A DNA stretch of 64,000 bases from an uncultured Gammaproteobacteria bacterium (GTDB taxonomy: Bacteria; Patescibacteriota; Patescibacteriia; UBA1558; 2-01-FULL-52-15), in assembly GCA_964402565.1 (NCBI GenBank), contig CAYOCJ010000002.1:170982-234981 (forward strand), in the 5' to 3' direction. A program made the translations under genes and the position numbers. Positions 10,190 through 60,727 of this stretch are shown one piece after another. The stretch's first letter is position 1; each line of letters starts with the position of its first letter. A model generated the notes under the pieces. That model had not been told where the DNA came from. It searched no databases and saw only the letters and a program-made list of their open reading frames with translations.

Positions 10190-10226
10190 ATCCGCGCTTA
10201 GTATACTTATTTCTTGTATTTTTTCA

Positions 10227-37284: not shown

Positions 37285-37689
37285 TTATGCCTGAGCGATC
37301 AACAACAGCACGAGAATATAGATGATATGCTCGTCAAGAACAGGATTATTCGCCGGAGGGAATCCGGAGAGATAAATCAGCGCCATCATAGCGATGCCGC
37401 AGTAGGCAGAAAATTTCAGTTTGATTTTGGTCAAAAGCCCAACGCCAACTCCGAGCAGGCCAAGCATGAAAAGCCAGTCGACCAGAGGGTTGCCGGCCAT
37501 TGCCTGGAAGATTCCGACAAACATTCCATGCGTGCCATGTGCGAGGTAACCAGCGGCTGGCGAAGTTCCTGAAATCCACGACTGATCCGGTTTTGTTGCA
37601 AAACCTAAACCAAAAACTTTATCGATGAATGCCCAGAGGAAAACTAATCCGAGTGCAATACGGAGTAGTTTTAGAATTTTTTTGTTCAT
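37285..37689 (-). CDS. DoxX-family membrane protein
   Basis: LLRIALGLVFLWAFIDKVFG DoxX N-terminal signature with 4 TMs. Start overlaps the rarA stop as ATGA. Confidence 0.6.
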   Translation of the reverse strand: MNKKILKLLRIALGLVFLWAFIDKVFGLGFATKPDQSWISGTSPAAGYLAHGTHGMFVGIFQAMAGNPLVDWLFMLGLLGVGVGLLTKIKLKFSAYCGIAMMALIYLSGFPPANNPVLDEHIIYILVLLLIAQA

Positions 37690-38831
37690 ACATCTCTTTT
37701 TAAATATTTCTTCTTTTTCAGTGTATCAGGTAAATAGCTTTCTTTCGAATATTTTTCATAGCCTTTGCCATAGCCGAGATGTTTCATGAGTTTAGTCGGT
37801 GCGTTGCGGATATGCATGGGGATCGGCAGATTGCCGAATTCCTTTACATCAGCCATAGCTTCTTGCAAGCCATCGTATGACGAGCGATCTTTTTTACAAT
37901 GTGCGAGATAGGCAACTCCATGCGCTAAGTTGATCGCGCACTCAGGATAACCGATGGTTTCGCATGCTCGAAAAACTGCATTTGCGACGACTAAGGCAGT
38001 CGGCTGAGCAAGTCCAATGTCTTCTGAAGCAAAGATGACCATGCGACGCGCGATGAAGAGAGGATCTTCGCCTGTCTCTATCATACGGGCGAGATAGTAG
38101 AGCGCAGCATCAGGCTGTGACGCGCGCATGCTCTTGATGAAGGCAGAGATCGTATTGTAATGCTCTTCACCTTTTTTATCGTAGCGCAGGAATTTGGACT
38201 GTAATGCGTCTTTCAGATGTTCCAGTGTCAGTGTTTTATACAAGGCCGCAGTATTGTCGATCATGGTCAGCGCTTGCCGTGCGTCGCCATTGGCCATTCG
38301 TATGAGCCATTCTTTTGCATCTTTTTTGATTGCGTAACCAGTGCGGTCTATGATCTGAGACATATCCTTTTCTGAAAGTTCATTAAGGACAAAAACTCTG
38401 CAGCGTGACAGCAAAGGAGCTATCACTTCGAAGCTGGGATTTTCTGTGGTAGCGCCTATCAAGGTTAGATCGCCTGACTCGACATACGGCAGCAGAAAAT
38501 CCTGCTGTGCTTTATTAAAACGATGAATTTCATCGAGGAATAGAACGACCGGTTGGGAATCGAGCTTGCGCTGCGCCTTGGGTACGATACTGCGTATATC
38601 ATCTTTGCCTGCAGAGACAGCTGAGAGCTCATGCAGCTCAGCGTCGAGAGCAGCTGCATAGATCTTTGCCAATGTTGTTTTCCCGACACCCGGAGGGCCC
38701 CACAGGAGGAAGGAAAATAAATGTTTCTTCTCAATTGCTTCCCGAAGCGGCTTTCCTTTACCGACCAGGTGTTCCTGGCCGACGAAGTTGTCGAGTGATA
38801 CGGGCCGAATTTTAGCTGCGAGAGGTTCCAT
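37686..38831 (-). CDS. rarA: replication-associated recombination protein A (AAA+ ATPase)
   Basis: Walker [15 protein letters not shown], Walker [13 protein letters not shown] and sensor 2, plus the MgsA C-terminal helical domain. Confidence 0.9.
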
Positions 38832-38930
38832 AGTCTAGGTATCTTACCCCTCCATAAAACCCTTTGCAAACAAAAAAGCAAACCCCGGCCAGAGTGGTCG
38901 GGGCTTTAGTTTTTTGCGCTTCAGGTGAGT

Positions 38931-39359: not shown

Positions 39360-39761
39360 ATGTTTTTCGCCATGGTGATTGGCAGCATCGGTGCCGGACT
39401 TCTGGGTTCGCTGTTTTGGACGCTCATCATGCTCGCAGCCGGCTTCTGGGAAATGTACAGGTACAAAGAGAAGTGGGACTACGAGATGACGATCCTGGTA
39501 TCTGCCATAGCTTTCAGCATCGTGGTCGGAAGCGCCTTGACTTGGACTTCATTACAGCTCGTGCCTTCTGCTTTGAACCGTCCGGCGAATGAAATGGGCG
39601 GCTCAGATTTGCTGGTGAGCCTCGTAGCCGGATTTGGCAGCTGGTACCTCTTTTTCAACACGAAGAACAGGATCGAAGACTACTTCGAGTATGTCTATAA
39701 GCCCCAGCAAGAGCGAAAAGCAAAGGCGATCCGTGAGGGCCTGATCTCGCGAGAACATTGA
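39360..39761 (+). CDS. small membrane protein
   Basis: Strong SD aaaggaggagg 5 nt before the ATG. 3-4 TM helices. A terminator follows at 39766-39800. Confidence 0.6.
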   Translation: MFFAMVIGSIGAGLLGSLFWTLIMLAAGFWEMYRYKEKWDYEMTILVSAIAFSIVVGSALTWTSLQLVPSALNRPANEMGGSDLLVSLVAGFGSWYLFFNTKNRIEDYFEYVYKPQQERKAKAIREGLISREH

Positions 39762-39765
39762 CTGC

Positions 39766-39800
39766 TAAGTCCACCCCTAAAAAGGTGGACTTGTCATTTA
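39766..39800 (+). terminator. intrinsic terminator
   Basis: agtccacc-cctaaaaa-ggtggact followed by a T-rich run. Confidence 0.5.
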
Positions 39801-39815
39801 GATGAATGATATAGG

Positions 39816-39844
39816 TTGACACAATCGTAAATATTTGGTATAAG
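39816..39844 (+). promoter_or_regulatory. sigma70-like promoter (TTGACA-17-TATAAG) at the start of high-GC island 1
   Basis: ttgaca (39816-39821), a 17-nt spacer, then tataag (39839-44), about 60 nt upstream of the GTG at 39903. Confidence 0.5.
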
Positions 39845-39902
39845 TATTTGTTTTCTAAAACATCAACGTTTCATCTTTTGGCGCTTGCGCCAAGGAGGAA
39901 TT

Positions 39903-40964
39903 GTGACGAAAGCAAGGTTCTTTTTCATCCTGATCCTGATCATCCTGATCTGGCCTCACCAGCAGGCTCTGGCTTCCGAGAATACGACAAAGACATGCCA
40001 CATCGGAGCGCATCCGATCAGCACCGAGCAGAAGTGGGATCCGAAAACGGAATACCTCGTGCCCATGACCGAGGCGACCTTCGTTCAGATGCTCGACTCC
40101 CGGAACGAAGAAGCTGACTGCCTACTCACCGCGCCGTATCACGTGGTAGCGTCTCTCAAGGACGGCCGCTGGCTCCGAGTGCTCGAGTGTTCGAATACTT
40201 TGGTTGGTCAGCCGCATTTCTCGGAGATTCCAAAACCTCCGGAAACTGAAAACACGCCGTCAATCCTCAAGCTGGTTCCTACAGAAGAGACCGGCAGCAT
40301 CGTGATCAAGACGGACTCCGAGCCTTCCACGATTTTGAAGAAGACCGATGTCTACCCGTTCATCGGGCCGAGCGTCTGGTCATTGCCAGGTGCAGGCATC
40401 GAGGGTGGCGTGGAGGTCAATTACCGACATCTGCTCTTTGGAGGCGTCTTTCTCCATCACGAGTCAGGCGCGCATCTGCAAGATGCGAGCGAGTCAGCGT
40501 GCTGGGATAGCGCTGCTATGGGATGTGGCGGCAAGATCGCGCCGTATTGGCCGTGCCTGGTCGCTGATTTCAACCACCGAGCTTTCAAGTCCTCATTTGG
40601 TTGGGGAGTGGAACTCGGATTTCGGGAGCGGTTCACGGGCAATAGGTCCAGAAGCCGTTTTGCGCTCGGCCCGGAGATCGGGCACATTGCATACGGCAGC
40701 GACTTCAACCGGGGTCAGCTGATCAACATGGTCGGCATCGGATTCTCCGTCGACCTCGAGGCAATGAACGACGTTGTCGATGACAGTATGATCGTCATTG
40801 GCATCGACCGTGTTCAACGGCCATCCGTGTCTGCAAGTACGCAGACCGTCGACGTCTGCTGGGCAGACTACGGCAACCAGTGCAAGAGCTTCTCGCACCA
40901 GTGGCCGGGAGTGTCTGCCAAGAACGAGCTTGTGCTCAAGGTTGCCTGGGATTTCTGGTTCTAG
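39903..40964 (+). CDS. secreted hypothetical protein, beta-strand-rich, C-terminal ...WDFWF (high-GC island 1)
   Basis: GTG start with SD aaggagga. Signal peptide MTKARFFFILILIILIWPHQQALA. Alternating hydrophobic beta-strand patterns and a terminal aromatic Phe. The coding DNA is about 58% GC against about 43% in the flanks. Confidence 0.6.
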   Translation: MTKARFFFILILIILIWPHQQALASENTTKTCHIGAHPISTEQKWDPKTEYLVPMTEATFVQMLDSRNEEADCLLTAPYHVVASLKDGRWLRVLECSNTLVGQPHFSEIPKPPETENTPSILKLVPTEETGSIVIKTDSEPSTILKKTDVYPFIGPSVWSLPGAGIEGGVEVNYRHLLFGGVFLHHESGAHLQDASESACWDSAAMGCGGKIAPYWPCLVADFNHRAFKSSFGWGVELGFRERFTGNRSRSRFALGPEIGHIAYGSDFNRGQLINMVGIGFSVDLEAMNDVVDDSMIVIGIDRVQRPSVSASTQTVDVCWADYGNQCKSFSHQWPGVSAKNELVLKVAWDFWF

Positions 40965-41101
40965 GTTCAGCATCAGGAAAAAACTGGCGAGGTCGCTTGC
41001 GGCCTCGCCTTTTTCTTTTCTCTGTTGACGAAAATGATATGGAGGGGTAAGGTCTTTGGTCACGTTCATTCCAACTTGCGCGCTTGCGCATTGAGGTGCA
41101 T

Positions 41102-41668
41102 ATGCAAGGAAAGGTTCGAAACTTTTGTTTCTTTTTCGGATTCATCATGTTCTTGTGCGGATCTGCTCCGACGCATCTCGAAGCATACAGTGAGATGTGC
41201 GTGGCTATCCTCACTGTCCTCCTGGCTTTCTCGATCCTCTATACGAAGTCTCCACTGTTCGTACTGCCGTGCTTGCCTGCGGCTACGTACGCTCTGGGAT
41301 GCTGCATGCGCAGTGATGCACCTTTCAGTCTTCATCGATGCCTCGTCGGCACCGGATTCATTCTTGTCGGTTCACTGACGATTAGCTCCTTGCTCCGCAG
41401 ATACGCGGACGTCGATGTTACTGATTACTCGCCTCCGATGCCCCGTATCATTGTCGAGCATGTTGCCAAGGCGGTCTTCGAAGGAAATCCAGGTTATTAC
41501 CATGCTCGGCTCGAGGACTCATACCTGAATACAGGTCCTTGCGCAACCGAAACGCAAGCGCTTAACGAACTGTTTGCGATGCTCGAGGATGCGGGAAAAT
41601 CCACGAACAAAAAACATTACATAGTTATGATGCTTCAAGATGCATCACGCGATGAGAAAAACCAATGA
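41102..41668 (+). CDS. hypothetical membrane protein (high-GC island 1)
   Basis: SD gaggtg before ATG 41102 (alternative start 41084). N-terminal TM helices. A terminator follows at 41660-41700. Confidence 0.5.
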   Translation: MQGKVRNFCFFFGFIMFLCGSAPTHLEAYSEMCVAILTVLLAFSILYTKSPLFVLPCLPAATYALGCCMRSDAPFSLHRCLVGTGFILVGSLTISSLLRRYADVDVTDYSPPMPRIIVEHVAKAVFEGNPGYYHARLEDSYLNTGPCATETQALNELFAMLEDAGKSTNKKHYIVMMLQDASRDEKNQ

Positions 41669-41700
41669 CCGTAGTTAGAGGACTACGGTCTTTTCTTTTT
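41660..41700 (+). terminator. intrinsic terminator ending high-GC island 1
   Basis: gaccgtagt-tagaggact-acggtc followed by ttttcttttttt. Confidence 0.6.
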
Positions 41701-41746
41701 TTATGGTATACTTAAATGGTTCATTTTTTATTAATAAACATCAACT

Positions 41747-42654: not shown

Positions 42655-42978
42655 TTATCCAAGTATTATGAGCCCGAAAGCGCCGAGTATGAAAAACAGA
42701 ACGAGAAAAACGAGCGTATAGAGCGTAAGCGTGACTGCATCCTTCTTGGCTCCGCCCATGAATAGTGTTATCGGCTTTGCTAGAATTAAGAGTCCTGATA
42801 TCAATGCAGATATGACAAACAGGAGCAACATGACCACAGGAATCAGGATAGAAGGCTCCTTTACTTCACCAAAAAGTGCTTTTGTGTTGATCATAAAAAG
42901 TGCCACCAGCAGAATGTAGGCAACTTCGCCAAGTGCATTGAGAAAGGCAATTTGTGTAAGTGATTTTTTCATGAGCAT
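42655..42978 (-). CDS. small membrane protein (3 TM)
   Basis: 107-aa ORF of hydrophobic helices. Confidence 0.4.
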   Translation of the reverse strand: MLMKKSLTQIAFLNALGEVAYILLVALFMINTKALFGEVKEPSILIPVVMLLLFVISALISGLLILAKPITLFMGGAKKDAVTLTLYTLVFLVLFFILGAFGLIILG

Positions 42979-44147: not shown

Positions 44148-46106
44148 TTACACGGTATAAGGACGGGGTCTTTGGAGCCGAATAGGTCGCGTTTCGCCAT
44201 CAGGCGGCCAAAACTGGTTTTTGTAAGCACGAGGAATTCGCGTGCCGAGTGCTATGAAGCTTATGATCAGCAACACATCAATGACACCCAGAGCGGGCAG
44301 TCGATGCGTCGATGCCAGCGTTGCCATATTGTCGTAGAGCGTACCAGGCAATTGTCTGTTAAATTCGTAACCTGCTACAACGACCTTATTGGATTTACCG
44401 AAGAGATCAGACAAAATTGATCTGAACGTAACTTGCTCCGAGAATGAGCGGATCTTTTTCTCCTCTGTTGGCATAATTGTTGGCGTCACAGCTGGCTGCG
44501 GATAAACGATTTTCTTTTTAACCGGAACAGCAATGTTCTTGGAGCCTTGTACTGCCGGTGCTGGCGCAGGCGTAGTCACGGTCGTTTGCGAAGGCTGGGC
44601 CGGCAGTTGATCGGCAACCGTTGATGCAGGCTGCGATGCCGGCGGAGTTACTGAGTTGTCGGCTGCTGGAGCAGCAGGAGGGGTTATGCTTGGCTGTGGC
44701 GCAGGTGGAGGGGTATTGTCCGTTGTACCAGCTGACGTAGGCGGTAATCCATTATTCGTTGAGGTAGGCGTACCGTCAGGCGGATTCGAGGGAGGTGGAG
44801 TCGGCGTCGGTGCTGGTGTCGGCGTTGGGCTTGGAGCTGGGTTCGGCGCAGGTGAAGGTGCTGGAGTTGGGCTCGGCGAAGGCGAAGGCGTTGGTGCTGG
44901 TGTAGGAGCTGGAGACGGAGTTGGAGATGGAGTTGGTGACGGGCTTGGAGTTGGTGTCGGGGCTGGCGGGACAGTTGTTAATTGATAGGCGAAAAATTGC
45001 GCCAAGAGCATACCGCGTGAATTCGCCTGGAACAACGAACCGACCTGATCAAGCACTCCTTCCTGGCTTCCGCCCCATGCGCCCCAGTAATCGAAACCAA
45101 CAAGAATATGTTCGTCGATCAATCGCTGCCACATGGTATACATGGCGGTCAAATAATCTTTTCTTTGCGCCTCAGGCACTGAGGCATCCCAGTAGTCGCC
45201 CCATTCTTGCAAGTAGATCTGCTTATTTCCGCGCTGGGTGTAAATTCTCCTCAGATCTGATTCCATCTCTTCAGGTGTATGCGTGATGCCATAGTGGTCT
45301 ATCACGATATAGCCGGCATTATTGATCACCGATGAATACATCCATCCGCTATTGATCTCAGAAAAATTCTGAGCGGTCAGCCCAGTCGTGACTTGTTTGC
45401 CAATGACCGCAAAGGCGGCATCGGATACTGTTTTGAGGTCAATGAAAAATTGCGCATAGTTCGCTTGCAGCCCGGCTCCCGTTGCCGGCAAGAATGAGGT
45501 GCTGTCGCTGAAGATCCCTTCAGTGCGTTCCGGCAAGGGTCCCCATATATCTCCATTACTGAAAAATGCAGGGTGGTCGATAATGTATTTATAGGTTTTC
45601 CCGAGCCACGTTGTGGTGCCATCGGCCGCAGCGCTTGCTGCAGTTCCTGCTGGGAAGCGATTGGTTCCTACCCTTTTTGGGAAGCTGTAAATACCCTCAA
45701 TGCCGCTCCAGGTGCCACGCCAGACGACTTTCGCTCCATGCGCATGGATAGAATCGCTCCACTTTTGCGTGAATGCTTCAGCTGTTCGCGGTGAAGGCGC
45801 ATTCGGGTAGTCGCCTGTGCTGTCCATTGGTATTGAGATAGCGATATATTCCGGTTTGATATCGCGCATGATAGCCGTTACGATCGCATCAATGGTCGCG
45901 TCACTTGGCTGATTGCTGACCGTATCCTTCGTCCATTTCATCACATCAACGCCGGCATAATTCAAACCATTGGGAGTTGCGGCAAAACCTGCAGCGAATG
46001 GATAGATGAGGTTTATGAGTATAAAAAAAACGGCAAGAGTGGCGAGTACCGTTCTGAGTTTGCGTGCAGCAGCTGACTGGAATTTGATTTTATCCAGAAG
46101 GATCAT
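44148..46106 (-). CDS. cell-surface protein: putative glycoside-hydrolase-like N-domain, Pro/Thr/Ser/Ala-rich linker, C-terminal TM
   Basis: Signal-anchor, then a ~330-aa globular domain. A ~150-aa linker (PTPSPSPTPAPTP... encoded by the GC-rich tandem repeat at 44640-44990). TM helix LGVIDVLLIISFIALG. Confidence 0.5.
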   Translation of the reverse strand: MILLDKIKFQSAAARKLRTVLATLAVFFILINLIYPFAAGFAATPNGLNYAGVDVMKWTKDTVSNQPSDATIDAIVTAIMRDIKPEYIAISIPMDSTGDYPNAPSPRTAEAFTQKWSDSIHAHGAKVVWRGTWSGIEGIYSFPKRVGTNRFPAGTAASAAADGTTTWLGKTYKYIIDHPAFFSNGDIWGPLPERTEGIFSDSTSFLPATGAGLQANYAQFFIDLKTVSDAAFAVIGKQVTTGLTAQNFSEINSGWMYSSVINNAGYIVIDHYGITHTPEEMESDLRRIYTQRGNKQIYLQEWGDYWDASVPEAQRKDYLTAMYTMWQRLIDEHILVGFDYWGAWGGSQEGVLDQVGSLFQANSRGMLLAQFFAYQLTTVPPAPTPTPSPSPTPSPTPSPAPTPAPTPSPSPSPTPAPSPAPNPAPSPTPTPAPTPTPPPSNPPDGTPTSTNNGLPPTSAGTTDNTPPPAPQPSITPPAAPAADNSVTPPASQPASTVADQLPAQPSQTTVTTPAPAPAVQGSKNIAVPVKKKIVYPQPAVTPTIMPTEEKKIRSFSEQVTFRSILSDLFGKSNKVVVAGYEFNRQLPGTLYDNMATLASTHRLPALGVIDVLLIISFIALGTRIPRAYKNQFWPPDGETRPIRLQRPRPYTV

Positions 46107-48736: not shown

Positions 48737-50719
48737 ATGGAAAAGAAGAAATTCATTCTCGAGTCAATGTATAAGCCTACGGGCGATCAGCCGCAGGCTA
48801 TCGCTGCTTTGGTCAGTGGATTATCGAAAAAATTAGACAAGCAAGTTCTTGTCGGTGTCACTGGTTCAGGCAAAACCTTTACGATAGCCAATGTCATCGC
48901 ACAGGCGCAACGGCCGACTTTGGTGATCTCGCACAATAAAACTCTGGCAGCTCAGCTCGCCAGCGAGTTTCAGGATTTTTTTCCGAAGAATGCGGTTCAT
49001 TATTTCGTATCCTATTATGACTACTATCAGCCTGAAGCATATATTCCAACGACCGATACGCATATTGATAAAGAAACGCAGATCAACGAGGAAATTGACC
49101 GCCTCCGCCATGCTGCTACGCAGGCTGTGCTGACCAGGCGAGACGTGGTGATCGTTGCTTCTGTTTCATGCATTTACGGTTTGGGAGACCCGGAAGATTA
49201 TTCGAAAGTACGGATCGAAGTACAAGTTGGCAAAGAATATTCTGTAGAAAAGTTACTGAGACAGCTGCATTATTTGCAGTATCAGCGAAATGACACCAGT
49301 CTGGTCCGCGGCACGTATACGGTCAAAGGAGAACTTTTGGAAATTTTTGCATCCAGCGACGCAGAATCATTCTATCGCCTGGAGTTTTATGGTTCAAAGC
49401 TTGAAAAGATCAAACGCGTACATTATGTAACGAAGGATGTCGAAGATGCCACTCTTACCGAGCTTTCTATTTTTCCGGCGAAGCATTACCTGGCACCGCA
49501 AGAAAGCGTTCCCGAGATACTTGATGAGATACGATCTGATATGCAGAAGCAGGTGACGCTTTTCAAATCGCAAAATAAATTAATCGAAGCGCAGCGCATC
49601 GAAGAACGGGTGAGTTTTGATCTTGAAATGATCGAGACCGTGGGCTATTGCAATGGCATTGAGAATTACTCACGGTATTTTGATCGTAGGAAACCCGGTC
49701 TGCCGCCCGCGACCTTGCTTGAGTATTTTCCTGATGATTTTCTGCTGGTGGTTGATGAATCGCATATTACCTTGCCGCAGATACGGGGAATGTATAATGG
49801 CGACCGGTCGAGAAAATCCGTGCTCGTGGATTATGGCTGGCGTTTGCCGGCAGCTTTGGACAATAGGCCTCTCCAGTGGGACGAATTTTTGGCGCGGACT
49901 GATCAGACTATCTATATGTCTGCAACGCCTAGTGCGTATGAACTGACCGAGTCGAAACAGCGCGTTGAGCAGATCATCAGGCCGACCGGTCTTCTCGATC
50001 CTGAAGTAGAAGTACGACAGACCGCAGGCCAGATCACTGATGTTGAAAAAGAAATTGAAGCACGGGTAGCGAAGAAGCAGCGTGTGCTGATCACGACGCT
50101 GACGAAACGCTTGGCTGAGGATTTGGCAGAACATTTGCTTTTGAAAAAAGTTAAAGTACAGTATTTGCATTCTGATGTGGATACCTTGGACCGGCTCACC
50201 ATCCTGAAAGACCTCCGTTCAGGAAAATACGACGTGCTCGTGGGCATCAACTTGCTTCGCGAGGGTCTGGATCTGCCTGAAGTGTCGCTGGTCATTGTGC
50301 TTGATGCAGATAAGGAAGGTTTTTTGCGAAACGAGTCATCGCTGATCCAGACCATGGGCCGTGCCGCGCGCCATAAAGACGGACATGTCATCATGTATGC
50401 TGACCGGATGACCGATTCGATGAAGAAAGCTATTGCCGAGACCAATCGCCGACGTGAAATTCAGATGGCATACAATAAGAAGAATCATATTACTCCAGAA
50501 TCGATCATTCGCGGCATTAAAGATACGGCTCTGAAAGGCATGGATGTGAAAGAGGATTTCAAGAAAGAGATCACGCATTTGTCGCGTGATGAGAAAGCAT
50601 ATCTGATAGATACGTTACAACAGCAGATGCAAGTTCATGCGGAGAACCTTGAATTTGAACGGGCAGCTATTCTCAGAGATCAGATAGAGATTTTGAAAAA
50701 ATCACGTAGTAAAAAATAG
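48737..50719 (+). CDS. uvrB: excinuclease ABC subunit B
   Basis: Walker A GVTGSGKTFT, the helicase motifs, beta-hairpin region, and the C-terminal UvrC-interaction helix (ENLEFERAAILRDQIEILKK). Confidence 0.95.
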   Translation: MEKKKFILESMYKPTGDQPQAIAALVSGLSKKLDKQVLVGVTGSGKTFTIANVIAQAQRPTLVISHNKTLAAQLASEFQDFFPKNAVHYFVSYYDYYQPEAYIPTTDTHIDKETQINEEIDRLRHAATQAVLTRRDVVIVASVSCIYGLGDPEDYSKVRIEVQVGKEYSVEKLLRQLHYLQYQRNDTSLVRGTYTVKGELLEIFASSDAESFYRLEFYGSKLEKIKRVHYVTKDVEDATLTELSIFPAKHYLAPQESVPEILDEIRSDMQKQVTLFKSQNKLIEAQRIEERVSFDLEMIETVGYCNGIENYSRYFDRRKPGLPPATLLEYFPDDFLLVVDESHITLPQIRGMYNGDRSRKSVLVDYGWRLPAALDNRPLQWDEFLARTDQTIYMSATPSAYELTESKQRVEQIIRPTGLLDPEVEVRQTAGQITDVEKEIEARVAKKQRVLITTLTKRLAEDLAEHLLLKKVKVQYLHSDVDTLDRLTILKDLRSGKYDVLVGINLLREGLDLPEVSLVIVLDADKEGFLRNESSLIQTMGRAARHKDGHVIMYADRMTDSMKKAIAETNRRREIQMAYNKKNHITPESIIRGIKDTALKGMDVKEDFKKEITHLSRDEKAYLIDTLQQQMQVHAENLEFERAAILRDQIEILKKSRSKK

Positions 50720-50720
50720 T

Positions 50721-50846
50721 CGGCCTCGTCAGCACCGTCATTTCGAGTGAGCGGAGCGAATCGAGAAATCCCGGTGAGATAGAGTTAGCCTTTCTACCAA
50801 CGGGATCTCTCCACTCCGCTTCGCTTCGGTCGAGATGACGAGGCCG
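50721..50846. repeat. ~125-nt imperfect palindromic element (outer 11-bp stem cggcctcgtca/tgacgaggccg) immediately after uvrB
   Basis: Seen directly. Arms share agcggag and gaga(a/g)atcccg segments. Not simply a short hairpin plus T-run. Confidence 0.6.
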
Positions 50847-50974
50847 CCATTCTTTCTATAAAAAGAAAAGCCCCGATCCGTACCGCACTGGTTGTTCCAG
50901 TTTGGATTGGATCGGGGTCTTGTGCGGCCAGGTTGTTCGTTTGAACGACCTGGCCGTAGTCTTCGTTGAGCTTT

Positions 50975-51454
50975 CTAGTGGATATCGGGCATCGTCGGGT
51001 CGCAGATCACAGGGATCCCACGATGGTAGCCCATCAGGCCGCCGTCGATCCCGTCGCTGCTCTGCTCGCCCCAGCCGCCGTCCTGTTTCATGAGGACGAC
51101 TGCATGGGTGAAGCCTTGGAGAACTCGCCTCTCGTTTTTCGAGATGCGGACGTTCTCGACGCCGGCGACATGCCCGGCCTTGCAGCGCTCGACGATGTCA
51201 GCGTAGATCGCATGACGGCGCTCCTCATCCGAATCACGGTACGTGCCGTTGCCCCCGTTCACTCCGTCGCTGCATCGGACCGCGTAGACTTCCCCGGTTT
51301 TCTGATCCGTGAAGTACTCGTCCCACGCCATGCCGTAGCACCCGCCGATGGCTTCCGGGTCGAAGTCGTCGCCGCGCTTGTTCGGGTCGCCGTCGGCCCG
51401 AAGGTCGAAGATGTCGGCGAAACGTCGTTGCTGGATCCCGCTGGCCAGTGTCAT
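50975..51454 (-). CDS. hypothetical soluble protein (high-GC island 2)
   Basis: ATG with SD aggaggtga. The 159-aa product is Gly/Asp-rich with no recognised domain. Coding GC is about 58-60%. Confidence 0.5.
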   Translation of the reverse strand: MTLASGIQQRRFADIFDLRADGDPNKRGDDFDPEAIGGCYGMAWDEYFTDQKTGEVYAVRCSDGVNGGNGTYRDSDEERRHAIYADIVERCKAGHVAGVENVRISKNERRVLQGFTHAVVLMKQDGGWGEQSSDGIDGGLMGYHRGIPVICDPTMPDIH

Positions 51455-51466
51455 CGTGTTTTCCTT

Positions 51467-52018
51467 TCACCTCCTGAAGAGGAGGATCGTGAGAACCAAA
51501 CCCTGAATTCCGAAGAAGGCGACCGGCTGTGCGCCGCTCGCAATGGACCAGTGACTGACCGAGAGAAGCGCGCAAACGCTTCCGGTAACAGTCACGATCC
51601 ATGCTGACAGACTTTCGTGATGGGGTTTAAGCCACGCGTTCCTGAATGTCGGGTATGCAGCGATCACATTCGCCAGGAGGCTGAAGATGATCGCTGTCTC
51701 AGGCTGGCCAAACAAGAACAGCATGCTTATACCAGCGCCGACAGCACTTGCTTTGTCGCTCCAGTGCCATTCGGGGTCGCCGTACTTGCGTGCAAGATAG
51801 GCGACGATGATGGCTCCGAAGAAACAGACGATGATCTGTCCGTTTGTTTCTCTGCGCAGCAACATGCCTGCCGCTGTGATGGTGTCGAGGATGGACCAGA
51901 TGATCCATGAAGCCTTGGCCGGCTTGCAGCCTTTCTTCACGATGGCGTGGATATACAAGGTGAAGGAAGCCGCCGTGAAGATCCCTGATAGGATCGAGAA
52001 GACGTAGTACCAGTTCAC
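51467..52018 (-). CDS. hypothetical polytopic membrane protein, paralog of the next gene (high-GC island 2)
   Basis: GTG start at 52016-52018 with SD aggagga 6 nt upstream. Shares KPxxASW...W and PTxxxxxxxPxxESxxxW blocks with the 52033..52653 product. The longer ORF-track version (to 52426) overlaps the neighbour out of frame and is rejected. Confidence 0.5.
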   Translation of the reverse strand: MNWYYVFSILSGIFTAASFTLYIHAIVKKGCKPAKASWIIWSILDTITAAGMLLRRETNGQIIVCFFGAIIVAYLARKYGDPEWHWSDKASAVGAGISMLFLFGQPETAIIFSLLANVIAAYPTFRNAWLKPHHESLSAWIVTVTGSVCALLSVSHWSIASGAQPVAFFGIQGLVLTILLFRR

Positions 52019-52032
52019 GATGGTTCCTCCTG

Positions 52033-52653
52033 TTATGCCGTGAAGGATTCTTTTCTCCGCTGCCTGCAGAGAAATGCAATCGCTCCATGGCAGATGAGCA
52101 GTACCAGTGGCGTGATCAGCCCGATCAACTTCGTGGTGCCCATGTCGATGGACAACAGAACATTCACGGTGCTCATTGAGAATGCAATTGTCCAGAGTAC
52201 CCACGGGAGAGGGGATTCTTTGAACGGATTTGCTTTCACTCCATCGAGCGTCGGTTTGAACGAGATGAGGAACGCCAAAAGCACGATCATGTTCGCGCTG
52301 GTGGCGCTGCGAAGCGCCCACCAGATCAAGATTGCGAGCAAACCGAGTGCGAACAGCGCACATTCCTTTGGCGTAAGCCGGGAGAATTTCCCGATGAAAA
52401 GCACGTAGATGAAAGTGAGCATGCATGCTACCGATCCGGTCATGAACTGAAGCGACGCCACAACATCTCCGCTCATCTGGAAATAGGAGAGAGCATTGAG
52501 TGTGGCGAGAAACGCCCAGAGACTCCAGCTTGCAGCATTGGGCTTAGAACTGCCCAATTTAGCCTGCCGATTGTAGAGAAGGTAGGCGACGCCGTGCAGG
52601 ATCGCTGCACAAACAGCAATGACTATGGCCAGCTTGTGCATGGCGACCCCCAT
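52033..52653 (-). CDS. hypothetical polytopic membrane protein (high-GC island 2)
   Basis: 206 aa, about 6 TM helices. Paralogous to the 51467..52018 gene. Confidence 0.55.
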   Translation of the reverse strand: MGVAMHKLAIVIAVCAAILHGVAYLLYNRQAKLGSSKPNAASWSLWAFLATLNALSYFQMSGDVVASLQFMTGSVACMLTFIYVLFIGKFSRLTPKECALFALGLLAILIWWALRSATSANMIVLLAFLISFKPTLDGVKANPFKESPLPWVLWTIAFSMSTVNVLLSIDMGTTKLIGLITPLVLLICHGAIAFLCRQRRKESFTA

Positions 52654-55480: not shown

Positions 55481-56446
55481 TTAAATTTTGGCAATGAAAA
55501 GTGCCAGCTCAGAGTTGAACGTCCGCTGGTCATTCTTCAGCGTCATATCCAAATGCGTGAGCCGCGCGTATATTGTTTGCAATTCTTTTTTTGAGAAGTT
55601 TTTGCTCTGAGCCATAACCTTTTTTGCAACAAATGGATGCAATTTCAAGCGCTCAGCAATGCCATATGAATTCGGCGTGTGATCGCTTACTTCTCTGACC
55701 TGCACAATGAGCCGAAATTGGCGGAGAAGCATGCCGAACAGTTTTTGGCGGTCGATCGTACTGCGCAAATATTCATCCATGAGCTGAAGTGCTTTTGCTT
55801 TTTGCTTGGTACTGACCGCATCCAAAAAATCGAACATGATGTCAGCCTGCATTTCATGGACCAGCTCTTTGACTGACTGCGCATCTATCGCTGTTGCTTC
55901 AACGTAATGGCATAATTTTTGTAGTTCGTGGTACAAGGCCCACGAATCATCGCCCGCATATGACATGAGCAGCTCGCATGCCTCGCGGCTTATTGTTTTT
56001 TTCAGAAGTTTTGCCTGAGACTGCAGCCACGTAATGCGCTGATGCTCATCTAAGGGCGTAAATTCCTTGCAACAGTTGACCGGGGTGCAGAGCTCAATGA
56101 GGTATTTGAATAGTTTTCCATTTTTTCTCGGCGCTCCTTCATGCCAGATGATGATATAGTTTTCATCCTTTGAATTTTTGAGCGTTTTGAAATAGGCGAT
56201 CAAAGGATCCTGGATATCTGCGAACTTCTTGTGCGAGAATATGTTTTTGAGAATGATGAATTTTTTTGAAGACAGGAAACCCTGCGCTTTAACGCTGGTG
56301 AAGAATTTCTCCAGCGTAAAGTCGCTAACATCGATGGTCTCAGTATTGTGGCCACGTTTGTCATACAGCCCGATGAATTTCTTTTTGAGCAGCATCACCG
56401 TTTCGCGGGCACGGAAAGCGTCATCGCCGTAATAGAAGTAGATCAT
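55481..56446 (-). CDS. holA: DNA polymerase III delta subunit
   Basis: MIYFYYGDDAFRARE... N-terminus and the length and organisation typical of HolA. The 4-nt overlap with polA indicates operon linkage. Confidence 0.8.
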   Translation of the reverse strand: MIYFYYGDDAFRARETVMLLKKKFIGLYDKRGHNTETIDVSDFTLEKFFTSVKAQGFLSSKKFIILKNIFSHKKFADIQDPLIAYFKTLKNSKDENYIIIWHEGAPRKNGKLFKYLIELCTPVNCCKEFTPLDEHQRITWLQSQAKLLKKTISREACELLMSYAGDDSWALYHELQKLCHYVEATAIDAQSVKELVHEMQADIMFDFLDAVSTKQKAKALQLMDEYLRSTIDRQKLFGMLLRQFRLIVQVREVSDHTPNSYGIAERLKLHPFVAKKVMAQSKNFSKKELQTIYARLTHLDMTLKNDQRTFNSELALFIAKI

Positions 56447-59178: not shown

Positions 59179-59310
59179 AGGCGTATAGTAGCAGAGTAGG
59201 TTAAAAAAACAATTGACGGAAAAGCCGCTCCTTGCTAGGCTAGCCGGTACTTCGATGCATGGTGTATCGATGTTTTTTTGTCCTTTTCTCAACTGAAAGC
59301 GAGGTGCGCC

Positions 59311-60120
59311 GTGTCCGGCAAGCATACCTGGCTTCTCTTCGAAGCCATCAGAAAGTCGAAGGGCGAGAACATCCCCAAGCGTGGAGCGCTTCTGGTCTCG
59401 AACAGCTCCATGCTTTTCGTGAAAAACCGCCATTTGGATTTTTTTCTGGTACTCATGCAAAAGTACGGTGAGCAGATGAGCGTTCCCCTGCGCGTGGACA
59501 TCCAGTCGCTGCGGGTTTCTTTGCAACGCAGCTCCGGTCATCATTACTCGATGGTGGACCGCGGCGACTATCATTCCGGCTATCTGTTCGCCGTCCCGGA
59601 ACATTTCCCAGCTTCCCTGCTCCTCGCGAGTGATGCTACACCCATCGCGGAAATCCCGCCGAAGCTCGTCGTCGTACGATCAAAGACGAAAGAAAAAAAG
59701 CCGCATCCTTTGGCTGAGCATATCGTCGAGTACAACTTCACGCATAGCCATGTGGCGACGCTGACCTTCGAATTTGGCAAGGTCTGGGTGACGCGAAAAG
59801 CGTTTCGCAGATTCGAGCTCCGTTCCGGGCAGCTGAAGCGCAAGAAGAAAAATCGCGATGACTACGAGCTGTTGCTTGATCTGATAGCGGCGCTCCGGCG
59901 TTCGATCCTGGTGTACCGCAGAAACACGGTTCGCCAGCTCATCCGCTATCGATTCAAGGAAGCGAAGTACCGTATTGCGCAAGTCGGCGATGGCGGCCAC
60001 TGGGTGTTTGTCATGAGCCCCGAAGGTCTTCTGAAAACGGCCTATATCAAGAGCTACATCAGACGTCTGTATTACGCTGCGCCTCCTGAAGCAGGAACCA
60101 GCGCCAAAAAAGGAGCATGA
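59311..60120 (+). CDS. hypothetical basic protein (high-GC island 3)
   Basis: GTG at 59311 with SD gaggtg (the ORF track used an upstream TTG at 59278). Arg/Lys-rich with no recognised domain. About 58% GC. Confidence 0.45.
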   Translation: MSGKHTWLLFEAIRKSKGENIPKRGALLVSNSSMLFVKNRHLDFFLVLMQKYGEQMSVPLRVDIQSLRVSLQRSSGHHYSMVDRGDYHSGYLFAVPEHFPASLLLASDATPIAEIPPKLVVVRSKTKEKKPHPLAEHIVEYNFTHSHVATLTFEFGKVWVTRKAFRRFELRSGQLKRKKKNRDDYELLLDLIAALRRSILVYRRNTVRQLIRYRFKEAKYRIAQVGDGGHWVFVMSPEGLLKTAYIKSYIRRLYYAAPPEAGTSAKKGA

Positions 60121-60121
60121 A

Positions 60122-60616
60122 ATGAAATCGGCTCTTCGTCTGGCCCCGGTCGGGTTGTTGAACGGGAAGTTTCTGGCTACCAAGTCGATGGATTTTCCTG
60201 CGATGACCGCCCGGCAGCTCGCGGCTCTCAAGAATTTCATTGCCGTGTCGAAAGACGCGACCGAGTTTGCCCGGAAAGCGATCATCTGGATGATCGACCA
60301 AAGCGACAGGTTGACCGTACCGGTCGCATTGTCGATCGATGGATCCCATCAGGCCCTGGCAGAGGAAGTCGCGTGCGGAGCGCATGACATGAACAGCTCG
60401 CATGCCTCGACTCGCATCGGCCTGTTCCTCGACGGTATGGGTTCGCCCATGTTTCTGTACAGCCACGAGGGTTGCTACGTGGGCAGCGTTTTCGATGTGA
60501 AGGCCAAAGGCCTCACCACGTGGCTCAGCCCCGAGCTCTTCAGCGAGGAGCTTTTCAAGCCCGAGGTTCTGAGCTTCGACATCGAAGCGATCAGGGCCGT
60601 GAAGCTCGAGATGTAA
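60122..60616 (+). CDS. hypothetical protein (high-GC island 3)
   Basis: ATG with SD aaggag. 164 aa. Terminator at 60634-60680. Confidence 0.45.
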   Translation: MKSALRLAPVGLLNGKFLATKSMDFPAMTARQLAALKNFIAVSKDATEFARKAIIWMIDQSDRLTVPVALSIDGSHQALAEEVACGAHDMNSSHASTRIGLFLDGMGSPMFLYSHEGCYVGSVFDVKAKGLTTWLSPELFSEELFKPEVLSFDIEAIRAVKLEM

Positions 60617-60633
60617 CTTCAGTTGATTGCATC

Positions 60634-60680
60634 AAATTCGGCTGGGATGTCCCAAAGGGATGTCCCAGCCGACTTGTTTT
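60634..60680 (+). terminator. intrinsic terminator ending island 3
   Basis: cggctgg-gatgtcccaaagggatgtc-ccagccg followed by acttgttttt. Confidence 0.55.
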
Positions 60681-60727
60681 TATGGATACTTTTTGTTACC
60701 GTATAGCAAGTTTTCTGAACGTGTAGT

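What the first reader, a model, noticed from the sequence alone, without database searches (positions are those of the whole stretch)
39810..41700. High-GC island 1 (~58% GC vs ~43% flanks): secreted beta-rich protein ending ...WDFWF plus a membrane protein
Seen directly. There is an abrupt compositional shift delimited by terminators at 39766-39800 and 41660-41700, with its own TTGACA-17-TATAAG promoter. The first protein has a signal peptide, alternating beta-strand patterns and a C-terminal aromatic Phe, reminiscent of outer-membrane beta-barrels. That is unexpected for a presumed monoderm CPR-like cell. The alternatives are horizontal acquisition from a GC-rich organism (possibly the host of an episymbiont) or assembly chimerism.
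Basis: partly seen in the sequence, partly recalled or inferred. Interest (0 to 1): 0.6.

Follow-up and report, generated by a model that had tools for sequence, protein, structure and literature searches.

The report
GC-rich porin-like gene in CPR bacterium
A bacterium thought to have only one membrane carries a self-contained, unusually GC-rich gene for a secreted protein whose tail is predicted to fold like an outer-membrane barrel. Its few relatives in other such bacteria are also GC-rich islands, so this is a small, probably mobile gene family, not an assembly error.

Summary
The GC island is essentially one gene, A (39903-40964; GC 56.7%, GC3 0.70). The window averages 48.3% GC (GC3 0.51). 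The "membrane protein" B (41102-41668) has native composition (50% GC). A strong terminator (40986-41009) separates A from B.

A encodes a signal peptide, a Cys-containing head of about 80 aa, a Pro-rich stalk and a 205-aa C-terminal domain. AlphaFold2 (pLDDT 77) folds that domain as 12 long antiparallel strands. Nearly all its best fold matches are outer-membrane barrels, but they are weak (E >= 2e-3). The protein ends K-V-A-W-D-F-W-F, which resembles a BAM beta-signal.

No Pfam, NCBIfam, PHROGs, PADLOC or PDB sequence match exists. An exhaustive search found only four relatives. The three with readable flanks lie on contigs with CPR-typical gene content. One sits at the same locus in a relative.

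Every relative with context is also a GC island (up to +22 points) with the same third-position signature. Promoter, leader hairpin and GTG start are conserved.

Best reading: a horizontally circulating, CPR-restricted cassette for a head-stalk-barrel surface protein. Chimerism is unlikely and no diderm donor is detectable. The target membrane is unknown.

The parts
39360..39761 (+). Upstream 133-aa multi-pass membrane ORFan. It belongs to the island at synonymous sites only (GC 0.52, GC3 0.68; N3 A/C/G/T .16/.35/.33/.16).
   Evidence: No Pfam, NCBIfam, PHROGs or PADLOC family.
39767..39792 (+). Hairpin AAGTCCACC-N8-GGTGGACTT after the upstream gene. It is followed by a weak T tract (GTCATTT) and marks the left border.
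   Evidence: Read. Not listed by the terminator scan.
39816..39844 (+). Promoter-like site: TTGACA, 17 nt, TATAAG. The TTGACACAATCGT core is identical in locus L082.
39845..39902 (+). AT-rich leader (39801-39875 is 28% GC) ending in the hairpin GGCGCTTGCGCC (39880-39891). The hairpin abuts the Shine-Dalgarno AAGGAGG (39892-39898).
   Evidence: The same hairpin-GGAGG-GTG layout occurs in L081 and L082.
39903..40964 (+). Gene A, 353 aa, GTG start. This is the GC island proper (GC 0.567, GC3 0.70).
   Evidence: dN/dS against the syntenic homologue is about 0.34.
39903..39974 (+). Sec signal peptide (residues 1-24, cleavage after ALA).
   Evidence: Read from the sequence. All full-length homologues also have one.
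39990..40217 (+). N-terminal 'head' domain (about residues 30-105). It has three conserved Cys (C32, C73, C96) and the motif VVA..DG.W.RVL.C.N..G.P.
   Evidence: The AlphaFold2 confidence here is low. The only sequence lead is the rhamnose-binding lectin CSL3 at E 0.12, which is not significant.
40218..40346 (+). Pro/Thr/Glu-rich stalk (about residues 106-148), predicted disordered. It varies in length, and P0002 has an extra beta domain of about 100 aa in its place.
40347..40961 (+). C-terminal beta domain (residues 149-353). It has 12 amphipathic strands and two Cys-stapled conserved loops (C200...C218; C319-C327). It ends KVAWDFWF.
   Evidence: Internal duplication is shown in P0002.
40986..41019 (+). 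Intrinsic terminator of gene A (10-bp stem, 8 GC, T run). It is conserved at the DNA level in L081.
41025..41101 (+). Promoter-like TTGACG, 17 nt, TAAGGT, then the leader of gene B. The leader carries the same GCGCTTGCGC hairpin (41080-41089), then GAGGTG.
41102..41668 (+). Gene B, 188 aa (annotated elsewhere as 173 aa). It has 3-4 hydrophobic segments and a soluble tail of about 90 aa. Its composition is native (GC 0.50, GC3 0.54). It is an ORFan and is not part of the GC island.
   Evidence: It is absent from the syntenic locus L081.
41667..41702 (+). Terminator after gene B (10-bp stem; the hairpin also reads on the minus strand).
42655..42978 (-). 107-aa three-helix membrane protein of native composition. 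Its 58%-identical homologue lies directly after the gene-A homologue in L081, so it is the synteny anchor.

Best explanation
What is shown.
- Gene A is a real gene under purifying selection. It forms a self-contained cassette: promoter, AT-rich leader with a hairpin at the ribosome-binding site, GTG start, coding sequence, terminator.
- It encodes a Sec-exported three-part protein. The parts are a small Cys-containing head, a Pro-rich stalk, and a 205-aa C-terminal domain of 12 long amphipathic antiparallel strands.
- AlphaFold2 folds the C-terminal domain like an outer-membrane beta-barrel. The domain ends in a beta-signal-like K-x-A-W-x-aromatic-x-F.
- The protein belongs to a tiny family (four detectable relatives). 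Every relative with readable context sits on a CPR/Patescibacteria-type contig.
- In every genome the gene is a GC-rich island of 57-61% GC and GC3 of about 0.70. Host backgrounds range from 38% to 49% GC. Family members share one codon signature.

Inferred origin.
- The cassette, sometimes with other GC-rich ORFans, belongs to a GC-rich accessory gene pool that spreads horizontally among Patescibacteria.
- It is not an assembly chimera.
- It is not a detectable recent capture from a sampled diderm.

Inferred mechanism.
- The protein works as a head-stalk-anchor surface protein, in the manner of an autotransporter or an OmpA-type protein.
- The beta domain is the membrane-embedded or anchoring module, and the stalk holds out the head.
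- One relative (P0007) replaces the beta domain with a single transmembrane helix. This supports an anchoring role.
- The producer shows monoderm-type wall genes and no outer-membrane machinery in the window. The most likely target of the barrel is therefore the outer membrane of a diderm partner cell (tether and/or pore at the symbiont-host interface). This last step is the least secure.

Gene B is an unrelated, compositionally native, lineage-specific small membrane protein.
For: Composition.
- A has GC 0.567 and GC3 0.70 (z 2.9 and 3.5).
- The homologue in L085 has GC 0.594 and GC3 0.70, against background 0.378 (window GC) and neighbouring-gene GC3 of about 0.23-0.46 (z 7.4).
- The homologue in L082 has GC 0.588 against 0.483. 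Two non-homologous GC-rich genes follow it.
- The homologue in L081 has GC 0.614, next to a gene of 0.465 and intergenic DNA of about 0.40.
- Only 0.96% of 1-kb windows in 70 loci fetched through their RarA genes (mostly CPR MAGs) are 8 or more GC points above their locus median.
- Third-position base use is nearly identical across the family and its island companions. It is opposite to L085 natives.
- RSCU correlations: A-A' 0.67, A-P0002 0.69, A-P0007 0.57, A-own genome 0.49, P0007-own genome -0.49.

Reality and function of the gene.
- Full-length homologue at E 1.6e-76.
- dN/dS is about 0.34.
- Cys residues are conserved, and C319 and C327 are lost together in P0005.

Against chimerism.
- Synteny with the 42655-42978 gene, and a conserved terminator, appear in an independent assembly.
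- L082 and L083 are independent recoveries of the same arrangement.

Cassette.
- Promoter, leader hairpin, GGAGG and GTG are homologous in three loci.

Fold.
- Domain model has pLDDT 76.9 and pTM 0.64, with 12 strands of 8-13 residues.
- Nearly all top PDB and BFVD matches are OMP barrels: OmpA, OmpW, OprH, OprF, NspA, Ail, FapF, OmpT and phage OMP-like proteins. Probabilities reach 1.0.
- One strand face is hydrophobic and the other is Gly- and charge-rich.
- The two halves of the domain are duplicates of each other in P0002 (E 1e-13).

Anchor logic.
- P0007 is head plus linker plus a transmembrane helix.

Host envelope.
- FemAB, M23 with a PG-binding domain, a DD-carboxypeptidase and type IV pilus genes are present. 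No outer-membrane biogenesis gene is seen.
- Published CPR cells are described as lacking an outer membrane (PMC8871954; bioRxiv 10.64898/2026.03.03.709456).
- Horizontal transfer in Patescibacteria is reported as mostly within the phylum (PMC12455944).
Against: - No Foldseek match reaches E 1e-3. TM-scores are only 0.34-0.48 when normalised by the query. Strands 4, 9 and 11 lack a clearly hydrophobic face.
- The structural model rests on four sequences.
- Four conserved Cys in the beta domain are unusual for classical OMPs.
- No known route lets a protein secreted by a monoderm reach and enter another cell's outer membrane from outside. BAM works from the periplasm.
- No donor lineage, integrase, flanking repeat or mobile-element gene was found.
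- The syntenic pair A/A' has dS of about 1.5, yet both keep GC3 of about 0.7. The co-inherited promoter and leader are only 28-34% GC. This fits in-place maintenance of GC better than simple un-ameliorated transfer.
- The CPR affiliation of L082 and L085 is inferred from gene content and best matches only.
Confidence: 0.45

Rival explanations
1. The high GC is maintained in place rather than being a trace of transfer. The gene is inherited vertically. Its coding sequence is held at GC3 of about 0.7 by selection on the mRNA or its translation. Alternatively, GC-biased gene conversion acts at a frequently recombining surface-protein locus.
For: - A and its syntenic homologue A' are as diverged at synonymous sites as the neighbouring native gene. 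Four-fold identity is 0.47 versus 0.28 expected for A/A', and 0.45 versus 0.26 for the neighbour pair. dS is about 1.5. Both still have GC3 of 0.68-0.71.
- The homologous promoter and leader that travel with the gene are 28-34% GC. The jump in composition starts at the ribosome-binding site.
- GC3 is about 0.70 in hosts ranging from 38% to 49% GC.
Against: - Non-homologous neighbours share the same signature (two genes in L082, the upstream gene in the window, other ORFs in L081). The trait therefore belongs to segments, not to this protein.
- Highly expressed genes of L085 (S20, cold-shock protein) are AT-rich at third positions. Host translational selection cannot explain that case.
- GC1 and GC2 are also raised in some members.
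- The family is extremely patchy and lies at different loci.
Confidence: 0.25
2. The gene is an ordinary outer-membrane protein recently captured from a GC-rich diderm organism, perhaps the host. It has little or no function in the CPR cell.
For: The fold and C-terminal motif are OMP-like. GC content and amino-acid composition are shifted. In L085 the gene sits beside a tRNA-Arg gene.
Against: - HMMER against 1.84 billion representatives found no diderm homologue. Scans of genome, metagenome, viral, phage and plasmid collections found none either.
- All relatives with context are in CPR-like surroundings.
- The gene is under purifying selection (dN/dS about 0.34) and is syntenic in a diverged relative.
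- Its promoter and leader are AT-rich like the host's and are conserved among CPR loci.
Confidence: 0.1
3. The C-terminal domain is not a membrane barrel. It is a soluble or wall-associated all-beta domain, either a two-sheet sandwich built from the two six-strand repeats or a ligand-binding barrel. The protein would then be a secreted adhesin, lectin or scavenger.
For: - Fold matches are weak (E >= 2e-3; RMSD 6-30 A).
- Disulfide-stapled loops are the most conserved parts.
- Several strands lack a hydrophobic face.
- The duplication into 2 x 6 strands would suit a sandwich whose hydrophobic faces pack against each other.
- The producer is expected to lack an outer membrane.
- The head gives a faint, non-significant match to a rhamnose-binding lectin (E 0.12).
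Against: - Nearly all of the top 50 matches in both structure libraries are outer-membrane barrels, and none is an Ig-like, jelly-roll, lectin-sandwich or lipocalin fold.
- Strands are long (8-13 residues), all nearest-neighbour, with a Gly- and charge-rich face typical of OMP interiors.
- The terminal K-x-A-W-x-aromatic-x-F is conserved. In P0002 it also ends the first repeat.
Confidence: 0.3
4. The source organism, or some Patescibacteria, has its own outer-membrane-like layer, and gene A encodes one of its resident barrel proteins.
For: The protein has an OMP-like fold and a beta-signal-like end. The family is confined to CPR-type contigs. Purifying selection acts on it.
Against: - No outer-membrane biogenesis gene is seen in the 64-kb window or in the roughly 45 kb of related loci.
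- The wall genes are of monoderm type (FemAB).
- Described CPR cells lack an outer membrane (PMC8871954).
- A structural envelope protein would not be expected to be this rare, this patchy and compositionally foreign.
Confidence: 0.07
5. Assembly chimerism: a GC-rich fragment from another organism was joined into the CPR contig.
For: There is an abrupt compositional change over about 1.1 kb. Read data could not be examined.
Against: - The borders fall in AT-rich intergenic DNA, which carries a promoter and leader homologous to those of other CPR loci.
- The same gene-neighbour junction, with the terminator, exists in an independent assembly.
- Homologues are embedded deep inside 88-kb and 184-kb contigs. 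One arrangement was recovered in two independent assemblies.
Confidence: 0.02

Closest known systems
Small outer-membrane beta-barrels of diderm bacteria (OmpA transmembrane domain, OmpW, OprH, OprF N-domain, NspA, Ail; Pfam OMP_b-brl type)
   Same: It has a Sec signal peptide. It has an all-nearest-neighbour antiparallel meander of long amphipathic strands. One strand face is hydrophobic and the other is Gly- and charge-rich. The terminal strand ends aromatic-x-Phe. These proteins are the best fold matches.
   Different: There is no sequence-family match. It has 12 predicted strands rather than 8. It has four conserved Cys in two stapled loops. It has an N-terminal head and stalk. It is encoded in a Patescibacteria genome with no sign of an outer membrane or BAM. 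Fold scores are below significance.
Classical (type Va) autotransporters
   Same: The order of parts is the same: signal peptide, N-terminal displayed domain, linker, C-terminal barrel. The predicted strand number is 12, as in autotransporter barrels (established knowledge). The C-terminus is aromatic-x-Phe. The BrkA beta domain and a phage 'autotransporter barrel' are among the weak matches.
   Different: No alpha-helical linker is predicted to plug the pore; the stalk is Pro-rich and disordered. The barrel domain is about 205 aa rather than about 250-300. There is no Pfam Autotransporter match. The passenger is only about 80 aa.
FapF and other 12-stranded outer-membrane channels
   Same: The strand number is the same, and they recur among the top PDB matches.
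   Different: TM-scores are only 0.2-0.3 and RMSD exceeds 20 A. There is no plug or coiled-coil domain and no fap-like operon.
OmpM/Slp-type envelope tethers of diderm Terrabacteria (N-terminal wall-binding domain, spacer, C-terminal barrel)
   Same: The overall logic is shared: an N-terminal non-membrane domain joined by a spacer to a C-terminal beta-barrel.
   Different: There is no SLH domain and no coiled-coil stalk. Those barrels are much larger. Wall binding by the head was not tested. The resemblance is one of architecture only.
Compositionally atypical genomic islands and ORFan cassettes acquired by horizontal transfer in Patescibacteria (PMC12455944)
   Same: The composition and codon usage are atypical, the phyletic distribution is patchy, and one member lies next to a tRNA gene. 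Transfers in this phylum are reported as mostly within the phylum.
   Different: It is GC-richer than the host, whereas (established knowledge) bacterial ORFans are usually AT-richer. There is no integrase, repeat or mobility gene. The island is a single-gene promoter-to-terminator unit. GC-richness persists across a syntenic pair with saturated synonymous divergence.

Membership tests
Outer-membrane beta-barrel proteins (OmpA-like / OMP_b-brl type) | N-terminal Sec signal peptide | tested here: met
   MTKARFFFILILIILIWPHQQALA/SE. All full-length homologues also have one.
Outer-membrane beta-barrel proteins (OmpA-like / OMP_b-brl type) | Even number of nearest-neighbour antiparallel strands forming a closed barrel with a hydrophobic outer belt | tested here: inconclusive
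   AlphaFold2 predicts 12 strands of 8-13 residues (pLDDT 77). Nearly all top fold matches are OMP barrels, but E >= 2e-3 and TMq is 0.34-0.48. About 7 of 12 strands have a clearly hydrophobic face.
Outer-membrane beta-barrel proteins (OmpA-like / OMP_b-brl type) | C-terminal beta-signal (polar-x-G-x-x-aromatic-x-aromatic, last residue usually Phe; consensus recalled from the literature) | tested here: met
   KVAWDFWF, KAAWGWWF and QFAWRYVF in A, P0001 and P0002, with Ala in place of Gly. This is a match by sequence only.
Outer-membrane beta-barrel proteins (OmpA-like / OMP_b-brl type) | Match to a curated sequence model of an OMP family | tested here: not met
   No Pfam or NCBIfam family was found, even at E 10, for any family member. 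No PDB sequence match was found.
Outer-membrane beta-barrel proteins (OmpA-like / OMP_b-brl type) | Producer has an outer membrane and a BamA/Omp85 insertase | not testable with these tools
   Only 64 kb of a roughly 513-kb genome is available. Nothing of the kind was seen in the window or the related loci.
Type Va autotransporter | C-terminal 12-stranded barrel with an alpha-helical linker inside the pore | tested here: not met
   12 strands are predicted, but the preceding segment is Pro-rich and disordered. Only a 3-residue helical turn is predicted.
Type Va autotransporter | Match to the Autotransporter beta-domain model | tested here: not met
   No Pfam hit.
Type Va autotransporter | N-terminal passenger exported and displayed through or by the barrel | not testable with these tools
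   The architecture is compatible (head plus stalk). Export topology needs experiment.
Horizontally acquired genomic island | Composition and codon usage atypical for the genome | tested here: met
   z is 2.9 for GC and 3.5 for GC3. The RSCU pattern is closer to homologues in other genomes than to the gene's own genome.
Horizontally acquired genomic island | Mobility genes, flanking direct repeats or insertion at a tRNA gene | tested here: not met
   There are no repeats or integrase at the window locus and no tRNA nearby. Only the L085 member abuts a tRNA-Arg.
Horizontally acquired genomic island | Patchy distribution incongruent with vertical descent | tested here: inconclusive
   Four relatives were found among 1.84 billion representatives, at different loci in distant CPR. 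One relative is syntenic and as diverged as its neighbour.
SUEL / rhamnose-binding lectin domain (for the N-terminal head) | Significant sequence or fold match to the lectin domain | tested here: not met
   The best PDB profile hit is CSL3 at E 0.12, with both lectin repeats touched. This is a lead only.

The most novel reading that the evidence does not exclude
Patescibacteria, thought to have a single membrane, encode a genuine BAM-type outer-membrane beta-barrel with a displayed head. Two uses are possible. They may plant it in the outer membrane of a diderm partner, as a tether or pore at the symbiont-host contact. Or some of them may possess an outer-membrane-like layer of their own. In addition, its coding sequence is kept GC-rich in genomes of very different base composition, by a process still to be identified.
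Probability: 0.2. Interest if true: 0.85.

Novelty: new variant of a known kind. Interest (0 to 1): 0.55.

Why it matters
How ultra-small episymbiotic bacteria attach to host cells and draw material from them is largely unknown. Their envelopes are assumed to lack outer-membrane-type proteins.

This family is sequence-orphan and restricted to these bacteria, yet it has an outer-membrane-barrel-like anchor and a displayed head. It would be a concrete, testable candidate for a contact or pore protein.

The same gene is GC-rich in genomes from 38% to 49% GC, while its own promoter and leader are AT-rich. This offers a clean natural case for separating un-ameliorated transfer from active maintenance of base composition.

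If the barrel prediction fails, what remains is a modest result: a rare, probably mobile secreted ORFan.

Tried and rejected
Sequence-family searches.
- Pfam, NCBIfam, PHROGs and PADLOC found nothing for A, B, the upstream and downstream ORFans, or the ORFans of the two other GC-rich spots.

Homologue searches.
- The word-indexed search of 5.8 billion proteins found nothing for A. With the family profile it found only one known member.
- Scans of genome, metagenome and viral contigs found nothing, whether run with A, with the family alignment, or with P0002 and P0007.
- tblastn against phage and plasmid collections found nothing.
- PDB sequence profiles found nothing significant.
- Three of the seven phmmer hits (P0003, P0004, P0006) are repetitive proteins matched on short stretches. 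I discarded them as spurious.

Locating the source.
- An exact look-up of RarA and of P0008 failed.
- The 80 loci fetched through RarA share no synteny with the window, so they could not serve as close relatives.

Composition tests.
- A codon-fit score against the window's own usage did not discriminate, because the genome has weak codon bias.

RNA and repeats.
- Rfam found no known RNA in the leaders.
- The repeat search found no att-like flanks.

Structure tools.

Leads tested and dropped.
- BLASTP did not detect the internal duplication in A itself.
- I suspected a HicB-like motif in B's tail, and an SH3-like reading of the head. Neither got support from Pfam.


Full report
**Observation**

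Sliding-window composition confirms a GC peak at about 39,900-41,000, reaching 55-59%. Gene A (39903-40964) is 56.7% GC. The left and right 2-kb flanks are 48.2% and 44.9%, and the window as a whole is 48.3%. The contrast is therefore about 8-9 points, not 15.

The peak is still unusual. A lies in the top 0.9% of equally long windows (z 2.9). Its GC3 of 0.70 stands 3.5 sd above the 44 other genes, which have mean 0.507 and maximum 0.60.

The second gene, B (41102-41668), has 50% GC and GC3 0.54. It is compositionally native.

A stronger terminator lies between A and B at 40986-41009, so A and B are separate transcription units. The TTGACA-17-TATAAG promoter is there.

**The gene and its start**

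Three homologous loci align across the promoter and leader. Each has a -35 TTGACA; the core TTGACACAATCGT is identical in the window and in L082. Each has an AT-rich leader of about 55 nt. Each has a short GC hairpin (GGCGCTTGCGCC, GGCTCATAAGCC or GGCGAAAGCC) directly before GGAGG, followed by a GTG start. This places the start of A at GTG 39903, not at the upstream TTG.

The promoter and leader are 28-34% GC. The first 150 nt of the coding sequence are 53-61% GC. The compositional jump therefore sits at the ribosome-binding site.

**The protein**

A is 353 aa. It has a typical signal peptide with cleavage after ALA24. It has a head of about 80 aa with three conserved Cys. It has a Pro/Thr/Glu-rich stalk. 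It has a C-terminal domain of about 205 aa.

No Pfam, NCBIfam, PHROGs, PADLOC or PDB sequence match exists for any part, even at permissive thresholds.

AlphaFold2 on the full protein gives a poor head (pLDDT 30-50) but a confident tail. The tail alone gives pLDDT 76.9 and pTM 0.64, with twelve strands of 8-13 residues joined mostly by short turns.

Foldseek against the PDB returns almost only outer-membrane barrels: OmpA, OmpW, OprH, OprF, NspA, Ail, TtoA, FapF and OmpT. Against viral models it returns phage 'outer membrane protein beta-barrel' proteins. Probabilities reach 1.0, but E-values are no better than 2e-3 and query-normalised TM-scores are 0.34-0.48.

The strands alternate a hydrophobic face with a Gly- and charge-rich face, for example F-W-V-L-F against G-G-E-G-R-R. 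This pattern is conserved across the family in about seven of the twelve strands.

The last eight residues are KVAWDFWF. Relatives end KAAWGWWF and QFAWRYVF. These fit the BAM beta-signal consensus as I recall it from the literature, with Ala in place of Gly.

In P0002 the two halves of the domain are 39% identical (E 1e-13). Each half ends AWRY-x-F. The domain therefore arose by duplication of a six-strand unit. Duplication of strand units is a recognised route for barrel evolution (established knowledge).

Two conserved Cys-stapled loops are atypical for classical OMPs: ACW...WPC and VCW.DYG.QCK. C319 and C327 are lost together in P0005, which argues for a disulfide and hence an extracytoplasmic location.

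I could not inspect coordinates. Barrel closure and a complete hydrophobic belt remain unverified.

**The family**

The word-indexed search of 5.8 billion proteins found nothing. Exhaustive HMMER against 1.84 billion representatives found seven hits. Four are real:
- P0001: 355 aa, full length, E 1.6e-76.
- P0002: 412 aa, with an extra beta domain in the stalk.
- P0005: a 250-aa fragment.
- P0007: 233 aa, consisting of head, linker and a single C-terminal transmembrane helix in place of the beta domain.

The P0007 replacement suggests that the beta domain is an anchoring module and the head is the displayed part.

The contexts are CPR-like.
- P0002 lies in an 88-kb contig among PilB, FtsH, sigma-70, GyrA, RuvB and YchF. 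The same arrangement was recovered in a second assembly.
- P0007 lies in a 184-kb contig of 38.6% GC, among PilM, RuvX, DUF5670 and two-component genes, next to a tRNA-Arg.
- P0001 lies on a 3.4-kb contig directly followed by a 58%-identical homologue of window gene 42655-42978. The terminator of A is conserved at the DNA level there.

In that relative, B and the 264-aa gene are absent from between A and the neighbour.

The window itself is patescibacterial. Its RarA best matches are Paceibacterota and other CPR MAGs. Its genes include FemAB, an M23 peptidase with a peptidoglycan-binding domain, a DD-carboxypeptidase and type IV pilus components. No outer-membrane biogenesis gene is visible, but only 64 kb of about 513 kb is available.

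**GC-richness is a property of the family**

| Locus | Gene GC | Background |
|---|---|---|
| Window (gene A) | 0.567, GC3 0.70 | 0.482 +/- 0.030 |
| L085 (P0007) | 0.594, GC3 0.70 | 0.378 +/- 0.029 (z 7.4); neighbouring-gene GC3 0.23-0.46 |
| L082 (P0002) | 0.588 | 0.483 |
| L081 (P0001) | 0.614 | neighbour gene 0.465; intergenic about 0.40 |

In L082, two unrelated small genes of 0.56 and 0.60 GC follow the homologue. L081 also carries two further GC-rich segments.

In 70 loci fetched through their RarA genes (mostly CPR MAGs), only 0.96% of 1-kb windows exceed the locus median by 8 points. Three independent coincidences are therefore very unlikely.

Third-position base use is almost the same in A (A/C/G/T .12/.38/.33/.18), in P0002 (.12/.37/.32/.19) and in the two L082 companions. 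P0007 is similar (.14/.44/.26/.16). Two L085 native genes (the 882-aa neighbour and the cold-shock protein) are about .35/.16/.10/.40.

Codon-usage (RSCU) correlations are 0.57-0.69 within the family. They are 0.49 between A and its own genome, and -0.49 between P0007 and its own genome.

**What this means for origin**

Chimerism is very unlikely. The same junctions recur in independent assemblies, and the borders carry conserved, AT-rich expression signals.

A direct capture from a GC-rich diderm has no support, because no such homologue is detectable anywhere. The shared foreign signature, the patchy distribution, the different loci and the GC-rich non-homologous companions point elsewhere. 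They suggest a GC-rich accessory gene pool exchanged among Patescibacteria. This is in line with the report that most transfers in this phylum are intra-phylum (PMC12455944).

One feature resists a simple transfer story. A and its syntenic homologue are as diverged at synonymous sites as the native neighbour gene. Four-fold identity is 0.47 versus 0.28 expected for A/A', and 0.45 versus 0.26 for the neighbour pair. dS is about 1.5. dN/dS is about 0.34. Both genes still have GC3 of about 0.7, and the co-inherited leader is AT-rich.

This fits some active maintenance of GC in the coding sequence, either by selection on the mRNA or by GC-biased conversion at a recombining surface-protein locus. 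I keep that as the main rival (0.25).

**How it most likely works**

Shown: export signal, modular head-stalk-beta architecture, purifying selection, OMP-like predicted fold and C-terminal motif.

Inferred: the beta domain embeds in or anchors to a membrane, and the stalk presents the head. This is the logic of an autotransporter or OmpA-type protein. It fails the membership tests for both: there is no family model match and no pore-plugging helix.

Described CPR cells lack an outer membrane (PMC8871954), and the window shows monoderm-type wall genes. The membrane most compatible with such a barrel is therefore that of a diderm partner. How a protein secreted from outside would enter that membrane is unexplained. 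This is the weakest link.

A soluble or wall-bound all-beta domain remains a serious alternative (0.3). A faint, non-significant resemblance of the head to a rhamnose-binding lectin (E 0.12) is only a lead.

**Gene B**

B has the same GCGCTTGCGC hairpin before its ribosome-binding site as A. Only three exact copies of this motif occur in the window. B has 3-4 hydrophobic segments and a soluble tail of about 90 aa. It has native composition. Its only database match is itself, annotated as 173 aa. It is missing from the syntenic relative. It is best treated as a lineage-specific small membrane protein, not as a partner of A.

**Verdict**

The finding is real but re-scoped. It is a single-gene GC island that encodes a sequence-orphan, CPR-restricted, OMP-like head-stalk-barrel protein. 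The family as a whole is compositionally foreign wherever it is found.

Novelty: a new variant of a known kind (an outer-membrane-barrel-like protein in a lineage where none is expected). All structural evidence is predictive and of modest strength. Interest 0.55.

Noticed in passing
window 50480-52400 (ORF 50975-51454, minus strand): A second and stronger GC-rich spot. It holds a 159-aa ORFan with GC 0.63 and GC3 0.82 (C3 0.54). The ORF lies directly downstream of two paralogous multi-pass membrane-protein genes. It has no Pfam, PHROGs or PADLOC match and no similarity to gene A or to the L081/L082 island genes.
   Followed up: partly
window 59300-60800: A third GC-rich spot (about 54-55% GC). 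It has overlapping ORFans on both strands (59680-60285 minus, 60122-60616 plus, 59278-60120 plus) and ends at tRNA-Cys (60728-60801). No family match was found. The long N-terminal extension of the polA ORF (56443-59604) into this region is probably not real.
   Followed up: partly
window 37686-38831 (minus strand) and loci L001-L080: The RarA/MgsA ATPase is 69-78% identical to RarA in MAGs labelled as many different CPR classes and also as Acidobacteriota (Pyrinomonadaceae). None of the neighbouring genes is conserved in those loci. In L018 and L074 RarA is itself a local GC peak. This suggests wide horizontal spread of this gene, or mis-binning.
   Followed up: partly
window 38843-38856 (minus) and 41038-41051 (plus): A perfect 14-nt copy of TATGGAGGGGTAAG lies just upstream of the rarA start and in the promoter/leader of gene B. 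Only 2 of 100 shuffles gave two matches. It may be a shared regulatory or ribosome-binding element.
   Followed up: partly
window 39880-39891 and 41080-41089: The hairpin motif GCGCTTGCGC occurs immediately 5' of the Shine-Dalgarno sequence of both gene A and gene B. There are only three exact copies in 64 kb. Analogous hairpins precede GGAGG-GTG in L081 and L082. It may act as a translational control element.
   Followed up: partly
L085 9891-10002: The leader of the P0007 gene is GC-rich (0.53). It contains mutually complementary runs (CCCACCCC / GGTGGTGGGGG / CTCCCCCACC) that could form alternative hairpins, like an attenuator. No Rfam family matches it.
   Followed up: partly
window 44550-45000 (inside ORF 44148-46106, minus strand): This stretch has 60-63% GC and a very strong GC skew (+0.34 to +0.50) inside a 652-aa protein with an N-terminal membrane segment and no Pfam match. 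It is probably a compositionally biased or repetitive protein region.
   Followed up: no
L082 11268-11979: Two small soluble ORFans (110 and 108 aa) follow the P0002 gene and share its GC-rich codon signature. They have no family match and no counterpart in the window.
   Followed up: partly
L081 300-1000 and 2850-3410: The contig carrying the syntenic homologue has two further GC-rich segments (60-74% GC) on either side, separated by intergenic DNA of about 40% GC. One encodes an acidic protein with a phosphopantetheine-attachment (PP-binding) domain. GC-rich cassettes seem to cluster at this locus.
   Followed up: partly
window 10098-11069 (plus) versus tRNA-Ser 10099-10189 (minus): A 323-aa ORF in the mechanical ORF list starts exactly over a tRNA-Ser gene on the opposite strand. 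It is probably spurious at least at its 5' end.
   Followed up: no
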